NCBI GenBank assembly: GCA_036867785.1
Contig: CP145415.1
Location: 1 to 64,000, forward strand
DNA: 64,000 nucleotides
DNA from: Plasmodiophora brassicae
Lineage: Eukaryota
Reading direction: 5' to 3'
Part shown: one piece after another, positions 33,080 to 41,492 of the stretch
Position numbering within the stretch: position 1 is the first letter of the stretch
How the letters are laid out: the number at the start of each line of letters is the position of its first letter
Position numbers and translations under genes: made by a program
The notes under the pieces: generated by a model
The model's database searches: none
What the model saw: only the letters and a program-made list of their open reading frames with translations
Told to the model about the DNA's origin: nothing

Positions 33080-35269
33080 ATTCGCGATCACGTGCGGGAA
33101 GAACAGACAGGGCAACGGGAGCCTCCCCGCGCTCCGGAGCGGCGTGTTTTGCGGCATGTTTTGCCGCAGGCCGGTAACACTGCTATACCGTGGCGCAGGT
33201 CGTGGCGTGGCTGCGAGGGCGTACCGCAGAGTCGGTGTGTCGTCCTCTGCAATGTTACCTACGGTAGATGTGAGATACATTGTGTACCGTAATGAGTCTG
33301 TATCAGCCTGGTTCGTGTACAGCAGGAACAGGACACGTTCCGGCCGGTCCCCGACCGATTACCTGCCGTATGTATGTAGCGCGCGGTCGCCGTCGCCGAC
33401 TGAGATGGCGAAGCCAGGAAGGTCGCTGGAACGACTGCCTTGTTCGTAAACAGAAGGCAGTCGTCGCGATCCAGCGGCGAGTAGTTCTCCTTTACCTTCG
33501 CGGAGGCAGTTGCCGGTGGCCGCCGAACTGGGCTGCCAGCCGGTGGCTGCCGATCTGGATTGCCTGGCGGCGCGTACCCAATTGGGTTGCCAGCCGATGC
33601 GTTCTGAGCCGGATCCCCTGCCGCGTCCTGCCGGGTTGGACTGCCTGCAACCATCTGCCGAATTGGATCCCCTGCGTGTACAATTTAGAGTCTCTCTTAA
33701 AAACGGATTCGGACACCTTGCGACGCATGGAACCGACGCCCGGCAGTTTCTCCAATGAAGGCGTATCCGAAGATCAGCAAACCGAGCTTGAAGAGGCCAC
33801 GTACACCACTGGATTGGTTTATCCGTTCGGGAACGCAACGCAATTCGTCCTCTGTGCTATGCACAGTTTGCTCCTAATGGTCGGTCATTAGACCGAGGAC
33901 TGGTCCGAAGTCTAAAAAGCGCTACCATGTGGCGAGCCCCGCCCGCTGCAAGTGTCGTCCTCGCAGCCGTCCGTCATGCCGCTGTGCTTAGCGTCGCACG
34001 ACGCAGGTCGTCGCTGCAATGACGTGCTTGCCCACTCTGCCTGAACCTAAGCCGACGTCGCCGCCGACAATGGGCACAGGCCCGCATGCCCATTTGACCA
34101 CTATACGCCGCCCTGGGCAACGGCCGCCGCGTTCTCGGACCCATTGTGCCCACAACACGTCCCGTTGGATGCTTATCCTGCAGGACGTCCAGGACGGCAG
34201 TGGCGCCCAGTGCCAGCTGCAGACGCTCGACATGCGAACGTCTGCCTGCTGTCGACGACCGGCCGCCAACCTGGAGGCATATCTCGACAACCTGACCCGT
34301 CCAGTACAAGCAGTCAATGTCGAAGTAGGAAGAGAAAGCGTATGTCATGCTGCCGTCAGGCGGCAGGGAACGGTTAGGAGGCAGGTGAACACCGAGCGGG
34401 GCGCGGTGGCGCCGCGAGAAGTGTGACGCAGGTGGTCTTCCTATACGCGATCGGTAGCACGCAACGAGCCTTTCAGCACGTGTCATTGTCGTTGGGCACT
34501 TTGCTTCGCGTGTGATCCTCAGTCGCCGACGACCTCAACGGCGTCCGCAGAGGCAACATGCCAACATTTGACGTCTGGCGCGGCGAACAGTGTGGCGCAG
34601 GTGGTCTTCCCATGCGCGATCGGTAGCACGCAACGAGTTATACAAGAGACCACATCAACAAGCGCGTGTACACCGACCCTGCACGAGCCCTTGCCGTCAG
34701 CCGGCGCCGAACGGCAGTCTCCGTTGCGACTGCTGTTATTCTGCCTCAGTAGCTGGGGCCATCGGGGAGACTGGGACCGGGATTGGGACAGGCTGGGGCT
34801 GACAACAAGGCATTCGACCCAGACTGACGAGTGTGTGTTGTGTCCATCAGCACCAATGGATGGGAAGCGTGCTCAACCTGAACCATTGCCGATGATTTTA
34901 AACCGAGGACGGCAAGATGCCTCGTTTCCACCGTCCCGGTCAAGAATCCCCGTTCAGTCAGATTGATTGGCTAACTTTTTACCCCCCGGGATGGACAGGC
35001 TGGCTAAAAGTCCAATCAGGAGAGATAGAGAAGGAGGGAGAGGAGAGAATCCAATGATTGAACAGCAATTACTACTGTCGTGTCCTTACGTACAATGTTA
35101 GCTATTAGTTCTTCACAAACGCAAGCAGCATCGGAAGGCGCAGAGCATTTTTTGGAGGCCTCTGGGTCTGCGGGCCCCTGCGACTGCGCGCCCCAATGCT
35201 CTCCCGGGCTCTAAATGTCCCTATCTGCAATCCTATTGGTCATCTCTCCCGCCTGTTTGAACCCAAGGT

Positions 35270-35293
35270 GTCGTTCGACTTGTCGTTCGACTG
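35270..35293. repeat. Left (sub)terminal inverted repeat
   Basis: gtcgttcgacttgtcgttcgactg is the exact reverse complement of 41293-41316 and is built from two 12-bp units. Confidence 0.9.
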
Positions 35294-35540
35294 GGCTGCG
35301 CGCACTGCGCCCACTGAAGAAGCCACACTCACCCTGAATCGCGGTTGCTGCCGCCGTTTCGATTCTCGCGCCCTCCCAATGGCATAGTCATAGCACGAGA
35401 GTCCGAAGTCGGTAACACGCGAACGCGACGTCGCCTCCTTGTGACCCTGATTTCAATGGATCGCGTCGAGCCGATCTTCAATCAAATATCTCGAAACGAT
35501 GAACGTGGCATTCGAACATTTATTCATGTACTGTACAAAT

Positions 35541-38500
35541 TTACAGCAGCTGCTTTCGTTTGGCCCGCGTTTCAGTGTCTTTGAGATACCGCAATGCCTT
35601 ATCCGATTTTCTGGTAATCCAAGAGGACGGATCGTCATTTGCGCAATGTCGACGGTTATGGACGCCCGGACAGCCCATCTTCCCACATAGGAGATCCTCG
35701 TCGTCATCGGCTTCGTCCGTTCGATACCACTGCTTGACTGATCGGCAGCGTCTTTGATCCGCAGACACTTTCGCACGACGCCGTTTCCGTGTTTCGCCAG
35801 CAACAACTTCCCGTTGGTCGAGAGCTGGCGACGGCAATAGCGCTAGTCCTGGGAGGACGCTAACTCTCTGTTACAGTAGAAACTACAGTCAGATAATAAT
35901 TACACATTGTGAGACATAACAATGGCAAACCGGGAGATTGCTTTCTGCGTCAGGATCGACGCCAGCCGGATTCGTTGTAACGTCACAATCATCAGGCAGC
36001 CCGATCGTTGGATCGGTTACTTGCTCGGGCTGCGCTGGAAGGGATGCAGTAATTGACGCCGGCTGATCAACGGATATGTCGTGGCACGAGGACTCCGGTC
36101 CCTACGGGACGAACAATAAGTAGATGGTAACACATCCGATTATACAGTGCGCACGAGGTGCTCAAGAGAGATTTCAGGTACTGCGGCGCCATGCCTTTGA
36201 CGATCATTCGACATGTTTGCGGTACAGTCGACCCAAAGGATATTCATGAGCGCTCGAGTTTGTTCTGCAGAACCGCGCCGAATATGACGGTCATCCACTT
36301 TGCCTGCGAGCTCGTCGTGATATCTGCATGCACCCGATAAGATTACATATTCGAATCTGCGATGACTGCCGTTTGCATACCGTTTCATATGAACTGCAAA
36401 CTTCATAAACACGTTTGGGTGCGCCCAATCCCGGTCGCAATCTGTTTCATGCAATGTCGACGACTGGTCAATTCTTCCCTGCTCCCGGTCACTCTTGTCG
36501 GTTGCGGCACTACTGTCGTAGTGATCCCAGACTTGAAGAACGGTATAATTCCAGGTATCAGCCAGCATATCGAAATCAATTGAGCTGCCGCCGTGATTGC
36601 GAACATAATTCGACAGGACAGAGACGTAGAGTTGCTTCTCCTGTTCTGTGTGAAGAGGAAGGTAGGGAAGGCGGGCACCTTGGCAAAACGCAAGGTATTT
36701 CTTATCGCCCGACAAAGCACGATGTGGAGATCCCCTAACGGTAGCGTTAACTACATAGATGAGAAGAAAATCAATGAACGAACCTCTTGGCTTGCTCAAT
36801 TTGCCCACCAAAGTGAAATAACGATGAATGCGGCAGCAATTTGTCCCATTGCCAATCCAAGGAAGAGGGCACCTCAGGTCGAGGTTCCGTCCCCCATACC
36901 CTCTTCCCGAAGAAATTTATCAAGTCGACCTAGGAGCGCTGATGAGCATGGGCATGGCAATAACGAGTGGACCGACATACGAGCCAGGGCTTGAAATGCC
37001 CGATAATATAATGACCAGGCCTATTCTTCTCTGCCGCACGTATGTTCGTCCGTAGTACATGCTGTAGCATTAGTGCTTCAGTCAGCGCAATACCTGCATT
37101 CATCGACCCGAATTTCTTTTTAAGAACTCGATGATTGCTTTCACAGCAATTCGTCCCGCGTGAGCACCGGTATATCACAAGTCCATCCTTGTCGACTCCG
37201 ATTTCTTGATAGAAAGGGTAACCCTCCCCATCAGGGTCGCTACAGCAACCCTTATCAATATGCTCTAGAAGATTCTCTAAATCTTTGTGGCATTTTTCGT
37301 CGAACAACGGAACGCCTGAAAATGGGGTAAGGTGCAAATAATGTGGTGCACACGAAGACGTACCGTTGTGATCCAGTAGCTTTGAGAAATAGTCGCACAC
37401 TGCGAGGATCCTTGCCCGGAGAACACTTGGCACAGGTATTCGCCGACGAACACGCCGAAGAAAATAATCCCGGCGGAAAATCTTCCAATGTACAGGGTCT
37501 TCACCACGTTTTCGCAGGCTATCAGCCACCTAACGAAATGTTCACCATGACAGCCCGGACAGAGCAATACGCCACGTACCTTATTCAGATCGCTCGAATC
37601 CCAGATAAAGAACGCATCGCTGAGCGCGATAACGTACGGGGAATAAAACGGGTGCGCCTTTTTGACCTTGATGCGCTTCATCAAATGAAAGACATCTTGG
37701 AGACAGCATCGAACAGGTTCATCGTAGCGTTTCTCGGGCACTGTAAATGTAATTAAAGTGGCGCACAAGCGACAACGGTTGAATTTGCTTACAATCACAA
37801 CAATCGCCGTCGGCGGTAGAGCCACCTCCGTCTGCGGTAGAATCTCCTTGATCTGCGATATTGGGTTCAAACTCGCGCTCGACAGCTGAAGTTGTGAGGT
37901 CAGAAATTCTCAGGCAAATTGTCATGATCACGAAATACAATACCTAGACGCGGTCGGAGCGATGCGACGTCTACCAAAAGCGTGAACGGACACGGCCCAA
38001 ACGATTCAAGCGAACAGCCGGCACCACGCGGGTACCTGGAAACAGCGGCGGTTGCCAGTACCTAACATACGGCAACCTTAGTATGTAATTCGTTACTTCC
38101 GAAGAGACGCCTGTCGACCTTTTCAACGACAATGACAATACGAGACTTTGTGACTTTCGTTTTTTCCCAAAACTGCATGTGGCATGTAGATATCTTGCCC
38201 ATCGCAGCCACAGTGTGCCCAGCCAACAGCTCAACGGGCATACCAGGTAGCGGGGTGGGTGCACCAGCTTCAGCTTGAGGCGAATCCATGGCTGCAAGGC
38301 GAACAGATGGATCTGGTTTCGCGGCCAGACGCAAGTACACCATGAGACCAGCGTAAGCGTCCAGGGCCGCATACTCGACCTGTACGAAAGTAGTCAGCCA
38401 TAAACAATAATGTGTTAGGTACAAAGCGCATACTTGGTCATCAGACAGCTTATCCGCGGTCCACTGCGAGCACCGGATGTGTTGCGGTTTGGGCAAATTG

Positions 38501-41190: not shown

Positions 41191-41292
41191 ACCGCTCCAC
41201 CTACGACCACCAATGATCAGTTCGACTCGTTTAGCCACGCGGGGTCCGTGAACCCCCAAAATCGGGATTAATCCGACTAATCACTCAAGCGA

Positions 41293-41316
41293 CAGTCGAA
41301 CGACAAGTCGAACGAC
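41293..41316. repeat. Right (sub)terminal inverted repeat
   Basis: cagtcgaacgacaagtcgaacgac is the exact reverse complement of 35270-35293. Confidence 0.9.
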
Positions 41317-41322
41317 CCCGGG

Positions 41323-41492
41323 GCTCGAAGTAACGTCACTGATTAACCGTTGGACAATATCGTGCAGTTGGAGATTAATCGCTGGACAAGTTGTTTTGTA
41401 GTTTTTTTTCCCACTACAAAACAACTTGTCCAGCGATTAATCTCCAACTGCACGATATTGTCCAACGGTTAATCAGTGACGTTACTTCGAGC
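41323..41492. repeat. Perfect 80-bp inverted repeat with a 10-nt spacer; arms resemble a CACTA terminus
   Basis: 41323-41402 is the exact reverse complement of 41413-41492. The spacer is tttttttccc. Reading from 41412 gives CACTACAAAACAAC. Confidence 0.92.

What the first reader, a model, noticed from the sequence alone, without database searches (positions are those of the whole stretch)
35256..41330. Apparently intact Dada-like transposon whose transposase carries an embedded DEDDy 3'-5' exonuclease
Seen: all putative DDE-core motifs (YDFSHK, FTDK-CC, DVFH, RGTNCCE) and all three exonuclease motifs (DCEW, IGIDK, YAALDA) are present. The exonuclease sits between the second Asp and the DxxH motif, and the gene is enclosed by a perfect 24-bp inverted repeat. 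Established (from recall): this insertion point for a DEDDy exonuclease is described for some fungal and brown-algal Dada transposases. Dada elements are noted for targeting small-RNA genes and lacking long TIRs. Inference: a possibly active member in a rhizarian, with clearer inverted repeats than usual and no recognisable tRNA or snRNA flank, so its target rule may be new.
Basis: partly seen in the sequence, partly recalled or inferred. Interest (0 to 1): 0.72.

Follow-up and report, generated by a model that had tools for sequence, protein, structure and literature searches.

The report
Intact Dada-type transposon gene in clubroot parasite
This stretch of the clubroot parasite Plasmodiophora brassicae holds one intact, transcribed jumping-gene enzyme with a DNA-trimming module built into its cutting core, a design first reported in 2013 for a mushroom and a brown alga; nothing here shows that it still moves.

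Summary
The window is Plasmodiophora brassicae. A perfect 24-bp inverted repeat (35270-35293 / 41293-41316) encloses the gene and occurs nowhere else in the window.

Spliced RNA contigs from two studies show a single transcript. My RNA-guided model has 21 exons and an open frame of 1519 aa, and it corrects three errors in the annotation.

The protein has a DDE core: D467, D557 and E1062, plus DxxH at 910-913, invariant or nearly so in 25 relatives. The folded core matches the IS256-family transposase ISCth4 (Z 13.2). A WRN-like DEDDy exonuclease (Z 27.6) lies between the second Asp and DxxH. Kojima and Jurka (2013) describe exactly this layout for Dada-1/2_LB and Dada-1_ES.

So this is a new member, in a new host group (Rhizaria), of a known kind. 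Activity is not shown:
- there is no target-site duplication;
- no small-RNA gene lies in the flanks;
- the same insertion site is seen in the two other DNA runs examined;
- the only close paralog is decayed.

A new target rule cannot be inferred from one copy. Interest is modest.

The parts
35270..35293 (+). Left arm of the perfect 24-bp inverted repeat (two 12-nt units, GTCGTTCGACTT and GTCGTTCGACTG). Candidate terminal inverted repeat, 248 nt beyond the stop codon.
41293..41316 (-). Right arm of the 24-bp inverted repeat. Candidate terminal inverted repeat, 103 nt upstream of the ATG.
35541..41190 (-). Coding region of the transposase gene (PBRA_008413). The annotated model has 17 exons and 1503 aa. 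My RNA-guided model has 21 exons, 20 GT-AG introns of 48-63 nt and 1519 aa, with no stop codon.
   Evidence: annotation maps exactly; RNA joints and rebuilt frame
39486..40157 (-). DUF6729 region (residues 238-444) with a CxxC...CxxC cysteine motif (C281, C284, C320, C323). Likely the N-terminal zinc-finger DNA-binding part.
39405..39422 (-). YDFSHK, holding the first catalytic Asp (D467).
   Evidence: D in 24 of 25 aligned relatives, 1 gap
39089..39100 (-). FTDK, holding the second catalytic Asp (D557), at the end of strand 124-127 of the model.
   Evidence: 25 of 25
38323..38862 (-). Nested WRN-like DEDDy 3'-5' exonuclease domain (residues 617-778; D625, E627, D685, Y762, D766). It contains intron 38380-38433.
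37944..38061 (-). Exon present in the RNA contigs but missing from the annotation. It restores the conserved '...FGPCPFTLLVDV...' block.
37685..37696 (-). DVFH, the DxxH signature (D910, H913).
   Evidence: 25 of 25 each
37140..37160 (-). RGTNCCE, holding the catalytic Glu (E1062) on helix 630-643 of the model. H1065 follows it.
   Evidence: 25 of 25
40506..40547 (-). 42-nt mini-exon inside the annotated 155-nt intron. It is inferred from contig-length arithmetic and was not seen directly as a joint.
35544..35680 (-). C-terminal cysteine cluster (C1436, C1456, C1461, C1470). The cysteines are shared with most relatives that reach this far; the histidines are not conserved.

Best explanation
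The 6,047-bp unit 35270-41316 is a structurally intact, single-gene DNA transposon of the Dada superfamily, from the branch whose transposase has a 3'-5' exonuclease inside its catalytic core. It sits in Plasmodiophora brassicae.

Shown here:
- The gene is transcribed and spliced into one open frame of 1519 aa.
- The protein has an RNase-H-like DDE core of IS256/Mutator type (D467, D557, E1062, and DxxH at 910-913).
- Upstream of the core is a four-cysteine DUF6729 region.
- A WRN-like DEDDy exonuclease with all catalytic residues is inserted after the strand that carries the second Asp.

Inferred:
- The N-terminal zinc region binds the 12-nt units of the two inverted repeats.
- The DDE core cuts and rejoins the ends.
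- The nested exonuclease trims the 3' ends exposed at cleavage, as Kojima and Jurka proposed.

Whether this copy can still move is open. I put current mobility at roughly one in four.
For: Identity and intactness:
- The locus equals PBRA_008413 exactly.
- Contigs from runs X15 and X18 (two studies) lack 12 listed GT-AG introns that the contigs of DNA runs X12 and X14 keep. The rebuilt frame is open for 1519 aa.

Family size and composition:
- The exon carrying the catalytic Glu finds 853 representative proteins at E<=1e-3 and 201 at E<=1e-10.
- Of the 24 proteins I scanned, 12 have DUF6729 plus exonuclease, 7 exonuclease only, 3 DUF6729 only and 2 neither.
- Named members are fungi (Mycena, Marasmius, Lentinula, Hymenopellis, Mucorales, chytrids), an aphelid and P. 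brassicae. Some carry OTU, Ulp1 or JAB protease domains, which I recall as common cargo of transposons.

Catalytic residues in 25 aligned members:
- D467 in 24 of 25 (1 gap).
- D557, D910, H913, E1062 and H1065 in 25 of 25.

Fold (AlphaFold model of residues 430-1128, pLDDT 84):
- WRN exonuclease: Z 27.6, 186 residues aligned, rmsd 1.8.
- ISCth4 transposase 6xg8_A: Z 13.2, 240 residues aligned, rmsd 3.6, spanning model residues 1..674, that is both sides of the insertion. It is the only transposase, and the only match outside the exonuclease span, among the 50 rows shown.

Literature and repeats:
- The 2013 paper describes the same layout for Dada-1_LB, Dada-2_LB and Dada-1_ES. In one block of its Fig. 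S1, 16 of 35 residues match Dada-1_ES by eye.
- The 24-bp repeat is unique in the window and brackets exactly one gene.

Past spread in this genome:
- A decayed paralog, PBRA_005589/SPR01939.1, lacks the N-terminus and part of Exo I.
- A distant family member exists at PBRA_007613.
- A second, diverged contig covers 39.77-40.12 kb in both DNA runs.
Against: - No direct repeat of 5 bp or more (or 7 bp or more with one mismatch) flanks the unit, for any boundary up to about 20 bp outside either arm. Dada elements make 6-7-bp TSDs, and with perfect repeat arms a recent TSD should still be intact.
- No tRNA or snRNA fragment lies in either flank.
- No near-identical second copy turned up: one locus in the window and one protein cluster.
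- Contigs bridge both junctions unchanged in X12 and the left junction in X14. No empty-site joint is among the 15 joints shown (52 were not shown). All 14 DNA-type runs listed, from 5 studies, hold 0.95-0.99 of the words of the element plus flanks.
- RNA contigs cover both repeat arms (X18: 34969 up to 41323), so transcription is not visibly confined to the unit.
- 20 short introns and 5 synonymous versus 5 non-synonymous differences in the X18 strain (76% non-synonymous expected at random) would also fit a host gene.
- I could not compare directly with Repbase Dada proteins. Dataset S1 of the 2013 paper could not be read here.
Confidence: 0.6

Rival explanations
1. A domesticated (exapted) Dada transposase. 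The gene is now an immobile host gene kept for some DNA-end-processing or genome-defence role, and the inverted repeats are relics or have been reused as regulatory sites.
For: - One intact copy, at the same site in the isolates examined.
- It is transcribed and correctly spliced through 20 short GT-AG introns of 48-63 nt in two studies.
- No TSD.
- 5 of 10 coding differences between strains are synonymous, against about 24% expected at random.
- Transcript contigs run across both repeat arms.
Against: - The repeat arms are 24 of 24 identical, while the nearest paralog has diverged to 52% identity over the BLASTP alignment. Relics of an old domestication should have decayed.
- No closer relative than about 40% identity appears outside P. 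brassicae among 853 representatives. This argues against a conserved plasmodiophorid ortholog, though those genomes may simply not be in the library.
- Per the 2013 paper, all Dada elements except those of Perkinsus have introns, so introns do not tell the two readings apart.
- The 5:5 substitution count is too small to be significant.
Confidence: 0.27
2. The gene is a Dada-type transposase, but the 24-bp inverted repeat is not the element's terminus. The true ends lie elsewhere or are lost, and the repeat is an internal or unrelated protein-binding site pair.
For: - The Dada families with defined ends have no terminal inverted repeats, only short sub-terminal ones.
- No TSD adjoins the repeat.
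- The right arm directly abuts a separate palindrome and tandem block at 41324-41626.
- The X18 contig leaves the window sequence 7 nt beyond the arm, at 41323.
Against: - The repeat is unique in 64 kb and brackets one gene tightly.
- An exact 24-nt match is not expected by chance: 0 of 100 shuffles.
- I scanned for a TSD up to about 20 bp outside the arms and found none there either.
Confidence: 0.1

Closest known systems
Dada superfamily, exonuclease-bearing families Dada-1_LB and Dada-2_LB (Laccaria bicolor) and Dada-1_ES (Ectocarpus siliculosus); Kojima and Jurka 2013, PLoS One 8:e68260
   Same: - DDE core with a DxxH motif after the second Asp.
- N-terminal four-cysteine motif.
- DEDDy DnaQ-like exonuclease placed between the second Asp and DxxH.
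- Intron-containing gene of about 1400-1500 aa in an element of 4.7-11 kb.
   Different: - The host is a rhizarian, which is not among the hosts in their Table 1.
- A perfect 24-bp inverted repeat brackets the gene, whereas the paper reports no terminal inverted repeats.
- No 6-7-bp TSD and no small-RNA target.
- The C-terminal motif here is a cysteine cluster without the conserved histidine of their CCHC.
IS256-family transposase ISCth4 (PDB 6xg8), and by extension the Mutator-like, hAT, P and Kolobok transposases that share the C/DxxH signature
   Same: RNase-H-like catalytic fold. Z 13.2 with 240 residues aligned across both halves of the split core. The 2013 paper also reports distant similarity of Dada to these groups.
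   Different: 9% sequence identity. No Pfam transposase model matches, apart from one weak ZSWIM1-3 RNaseH-like hit in 1 of 25 relatives. ISCth4 has no nested exonuclease. This is a fold-level relative, not the same family.
WRN / EXD2 / Mut-7 (Nibbler) DEDDy exonuclease domains (Pfam PF01612)
   Same: Best profile match E 2.7e-42 to the WRN exonuclease. Fold match Z 27.6, 34% identity. All DEDDy residues are present.
   Different: Here the domain is an insertion inside a transposase core, not part of a helicase or an RNA-processing enzyme. 6 of 25 relatives have lost one or more of its catalytic residues.

Membership tests
Dada superfamily | DDE catalytic triad in an RNase-H-like core | tested here: met
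   D467 is present in 24 of 25 relatives (1 gap); D557 and E1062 in 25 of 25. In the model the residues sit on strand, strand end and helix as expected. Fold match to ISCth4, Z 13.2.
Dada superfamily | DxxH motif after the second Asp | tested here: met
   DVFH at 910-913. D and H are each present in 25 of 25 relatives.
Dada superfamily | N-terminal CCCC zinc finger | tested here: met
   CPHC at 281-284 and CEQC at 320-323. Every aligned relative with residues there has Cys: 18 of 18 and 20 of 20, the rest being gaps. Metal binding itself was not tested.
Dada superfamily | C-terminal CCHC zinc finger | tested here: inconclusive
   Cysteines C1436, C1456, C1461 and C1470 are shared by most relatives that reach the C-terminus. 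The histidines H1465 and H1469 are not conserved (2 and 1 of 25). The upstream CxxC seen in relatives is a single Cys here.
Dada superfamily | 6-7-bp target-site duplication | tested here: not met
   No direct repeat of 5 bp or more (or 7 bp or more with 1 mismatch) for any boundary up to about 20 bp outside either arm. This is a single copy, so the true ends are not independently defined.
Dada superfamily | Insertion into a multicopy small-RNA gene (U6, U1, tRNA). This holds for families with defined termini, not for all named families. | tested here: not met
   0 tRNA genes. 0 Rfam gathering-level matches in the window. No tRNA or snRNA match at E up to 10 in either flank.
Dada superfamily | Significant sequence similarity to the Repbase Dada transposases | not testable with these tools
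   Dataset S1 of the paper cannot be read here and Repbase is not on hand. The only comparison is by eye with Fig. S1: 16 of 35 residues match Dada-1_ES in one exonuclease block.
Dada, exonuclease-bearing branch | DEDDy exonuclease inserted between the second Asp and DxxH | tested here: met
   PF01612 at 617-778, between D557 and D910. D625, E627, D685, Y762 and D766 are present.
DnaQ-like DEDDy exonucleases (PF01612, WRN type) | Exo I, II and III motifs and the fold | tested here: met
IS256 / Mutator-like transposases | Sequence-level membership (Pfam transposase models) | tested here: not met
   No such Pfam hit for P0001. Only 1 of 25 relatives has a weak ZSWIM1-3 RNaseH-like hit (E 1.2e-4, below its cut-off). 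The likeness is at fold level only.

The most novel reading that the evidence does not exclude
The exonuclease-bearing DUF6729 proteins would form a large, largely unannotated branch of Dada. Unlike the animal families, this branch would use true terminal inverted repeats built from 12-nt near-palindromic units, would not target small-RNA genes, and would leave no ordinary 6-7-bp duplication. The P. brassicae copy would be a still-competent autonomous element of that branch. Its nested exonuclease would be part of a different end-processing chemistry.
Probability: 0.12. Interest if true: 0.6.

Novelty: new member of a known kind. Interest (0 to 1): 0.35.

Why it matters
- It extends the Dada superfamily, and its rare transposase-with-nested-exonuclease design, to Rhizaria.
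- It links Pfam's uncharacterised DUF6729 to the N-terminal part of these transposases. No paper in the searched library mentions DUF6729.
- It corrects the public gene model of PBRA_008413 at three places using RNA evidence.
- An intact, expressed copy with clean candidate ends would be a convenient substrate for the first biochemical test of what the nested exonuclease does in transposition. It does not by itself open a new question.

Tried and rejected
- No whole genome is held for this window, so copy number and termini could not be studied genome-wide.
- Three attempts to fetch related metagenome loci failed. Alignment A1 was too diverse to search with. P0004 and P0153 found no confirmed relative. 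So I could not test whether relatives have terminal repeats or TSDs.
- Word-based homolog searches added little. The 'longer' search found only P0001. The region search found two Mycena proteins. The 'near' search found nothing.
- No RNA holder is listed on record for the stretch. The runs used as RNA (X15, X18) are labelled RNA only as a guess; I treat them as RNA because their contigs lack the introns.
- Dataset S1 of the 2013 paper could not be read. A search for short Fig. S1 motifs of Dada-1_LB, Dada-2_LB and Dada-1_ES among the 156 stored proteins found no exact Laccaria or Ectocarpus protein.
- The profile search of solved structures by sequence found only exonucleases and polymerases, no transposase. 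Foldseek likewise listed only exonuclease-type chains.
- The two other GTCGTTCGAC 10-mers in the window (56941, 59719) sit in unrelated sequence and are chance matches.
- The sigma-70 promoter and terminator scan does not apply to a eukaryote and was not used.
- KDZ/Zisupton was considered because an earlier first-reader note named it. I dropped it: there is no such Pfam hit, and the DxxH plus DDE layout fits Dada.
- Literature: 'Plasmodiophora + Dada + transposable' gave only DADA2-software papers. So no report of Dada in this organism is in the searched library.
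Full report
**What is there**

The region 35256-41330 lies in Plasmodiophora brassicae. A search with one exon returned PBRA_008413 (P0001, 1503 aa, 'hypothetical protein'; UniRef calls it a 3'-5' exonuclease) at 99% identity. The whole annotated protein maps letter for letter onto the minus strand in 17 exons, from 41190 to 35544. 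tblastn of this protein against the 64-kb window finds only this locus.

Pfam finds DUF6729 (residues 238-444, E 1e-16) and the DNA_pol_A_exo1 exonuclease (617-778, E 3e-15).

The 24-nt inverted repeat is exact (35270-35293 / 41293-41316). It is the only pair of its kind in the window, and no shuffle produced it. Each arm is two 12-nt units whose 10-nt core GTCGTTCGAC is itself nearly palindromic. G+C is about 0.50-0.53 across the unit, against 0.60-0.68 in the gene-dense DNA further out.

**The transcript**

Of 24 public runs listed for window 34300-42300, 14 DNA-type runs from 5 studies hold 0.95-0.99 of its words. Six runs guessed to be RNA, from 4 studies, hold 0.65-0.70.

I laid two of each kind. 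The contigs of X15 (4909 nt) and X18 (5643 nt) skip 12 listed stretches of 48-63 nt with CT..AC ends, which is GT..AG on the minus strand. The contigs of DNA runs X12 and X14 keep those stretches. So X15 and X18 carry spliced RNA of this gene, as one molecule.

The joints differ from the annotation in three places:
- An extra intron at 37741-37792, together with an extra exon at 37944-38061. Both were seen directly as joints.
- An extra intron at 39170-39229. This is inferred from the contig's coordinate arithmetic; one other, less plausible split also kept the frame open.
- A 42-nt mini-exon at 40506-40547.

With these changes the gene has 21 exons, 20 introns of 48-63 nt, and an open frame of 1519 aa ending at 35541-35543.

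Two things support the corrected model. The new exon restores a block ('...FGPCPFTLLVDV...') that relatives and the paralog share and that the annotated protein lacks. The removed 20 residues are absent from the paralog.

**What the protein is**

The exon carrying RGTNCCE finds 853 representative proteins at E<=1e-3, 201 at E<=1e-10 and 2 at E<=1e-30.

Of the 24 proteins I scanned with Pfam:
- 12 carry DUF6729 plus the exonuclease;
- 7 carry the exonuclease only;
- 3 carry DUF6729 only;
- 2 carry neither.

A few add OTU, Ulp1 or JAB protease domains. Named members come from Agaricales, Mucorales, chytrids, an aphelid and P. brassicae; the rest are metagenomic.

In an alignment of 25 long members:
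- D467 is present in 24 (1 gap);
- D557, D910, H913, R1056, E1062 and H1065 are present in all 25;
- the four N-terminal cysteines are present in every sequence that covers them;
- the five exonuclease residues are each intact in 19-21, with 6 members having lost at least one.

An AlphaFold model of residues 430-1128 has mean pLDDT 84.1 and pTM 0.61. Its low-confidence stretches coincide with the mis-annotated segments. The model puts D467 in the first strand, D557 at the end of the fourth and E1062 on a helix, as in RNase-H-like transposases.

Structure searches gave two kinds of match. The WRN exonuclease is first (Foldseek E 1.2e-14, TM 0.89; VIA Z 27.6). The IS256-family transposase ISCth4 (6xg8_A) scores Z 13.2, with 240 residues aligned at rmsd 3.6 over model residues 1..674. 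That span covers both sides of the insertion, and it is the only transposase, and the only match outside the exonuclease span, among the 50 rows shown. By sequence profile the exonuclease is closest to WRN (E 2.7e-42).

**Comparison with the literature**

Kojima and Jurka 2013 (PMC3706591; I read passages, section 5 and Fig. S1) define Dada by these features:
- a DDE core with a DxxH motif;
- N-terminal CCCC and C-terminal CCHC zinc fingers;
- 6-7-bp TSDs;
- insertion into U6, U1 or tRNA genes;
- no terminal, only short sub-terminal, inverted repeats.

They state that Dada elements of Laccaria bicolor and Ectocarpus siliculosus carry a DEDDy exonuclease between the second Asp and DxxH, 'likely' processing cleaved 3' ends.

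Their host table has no rhizarian. A search for Plasmodiophora with Dada found only DADA2-software papers, and no paper in the library mentions DUF6729.

The 2013 paper contradicts that. The same note's ISCth4 lead held up in my own search. A second note (e1-7240835) reports a Dada element with the same design in Psilocybe; I did not test it. So this scan has met this design before on other DNA.

**Is it a mobile element, and is it active?**

For:
- The repeat arms bracket exactly one gene at typical distances: 103 nt before the ATG and 248 nt after the stop.
- The arms are perfect.
- The family has spread in this genome. PBRA_005589/SPR01939.1 is a close but decayed paralog: 52% identity over the alignment, with the N-terminus, 21 residues at Exo I and other blocks missing. 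PBRA_007613 is a distant member. A second, diverged contig covers 39.77-40.12 kb in both DNA runs.
- No relative closer than about 40% identity turned up outside P. brassicae.

Against:
- No TSD of 5 bp or more lies anywhere within about 20 bp outside the arms.
- No small-RNA gene lies in the flanks.
- Both junctions are unchanged in X12 and the left one in X14, and no empty-site joint is among those shown (15 shown, 52 not shown).
- No DNA run has an intermediate word share that would suggest flanks without the element.
- The RNA contigs cover both arms.
- The X18 strain differs at 12 positions, 10 of them coding: 5 synonymous and 5 not, against 76% non-synonymous expected at random. This is a weak, non-significant hint of constraint.

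**Verdict**

This is an intact, expressed Dada-type element or very recent relic, and a new member of a known kind. Mobility and any 'new target rule' are unproven. The decisive data are all genomic copies of the ends and a comparison with the Repbase Dada proteins, and neither was within reach here.

**Unexplained**

The X18 contig leaves the window sequence exactly after 41323 and runs on for about 379 nt. The first 30 nt of that extension occur nowhere in the window. Position 41323 is 7 nt beyond the right arm. It is followed by CT, which is an AG acceptor on the minus strand, and it is also where the flanking palindrome begins. A distant upstream exon, a strain rearrangement, or a contig chimera through a second copy of the terminal 31-mer are all possible.

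Noticed in passing
window 41324-41626: Directly beside the right repeat arm lie three copies of a unit of about 57-97 nt. One forward and one reverse copy form an 85-nt, 98% palindrome (41318-41402 / 41413-41497). A third copy follows in tandem (41530-41626, 89%). The unit contains a B-box-like GGTTCGAATC, but no tRNA or Rfam family matches; only generic long-hairpin miRNA models match, below their cut-offs.
   Followed up: partly
window 41323/41324: The spliced RNA contig of run X18 diverges from the window exactly here and continues for about 379 nt in sequence absent from the 64-kb window. A second loose end in X18 lies at 34969. This could be a structural difference between strains or an assembly chimera.
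   Followed up: partly
window 35541-41190 (-): The public gene model PBRA_008413 is wrong in three places. It retains an intron at 39170-39229, which adds 20 residues. It misses an exon at 37944-38061 and an intron at 37741-37792, which puts about 48 residues in the wrong frame. It misses a probable 42-nt exon at 40506-40547.
   Followed up: yes
window 41072-41190 (-), residues 1-40: The first exon encodes a strongly hydrophobic stretch (MATSVAMYMIIAIAGTVLALQSLYEALAVVVFLLAEE), which is odd for a transposase. An in-frame Met at residue 63 precedes a segment that looks ubiquitin-like by eye, so the true start codon is uncertain.
   Followed up: no
window 41642-43500 (+): The right-hand neighbour is an F-box gene (PF00646, E 2.8e-4). 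It is followed by sequence whose loose-end consensus reads like leucine-rich repeats. The summed contig depth in the DNA runs is 10-20 times that of the surroundings, so this looks like a multi-copy repeat or gene family.
   Followed up: partly
P0075 / P0160 / P0161 (PBRA_007613, SPQ99513.1, XXQ37259.1), not in this window: A second, distant member of the same transposase-with-exonuclease family (26% identity) exists in P. brassicae. It is annotated as a 'SANT domain-containing protein' of 1044-1743 aa, depending on the assembly.
   Followed up: no
alignment A1 (25 family members): Six of the 25 relatives have lost one or more DEDDy residues while keeping D, D, DxxH and E; the named ones I checked are mostly Agaricales. 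So the exonuclease appears dispensable, or is decaying, in part of the family.
   Followed up: partly
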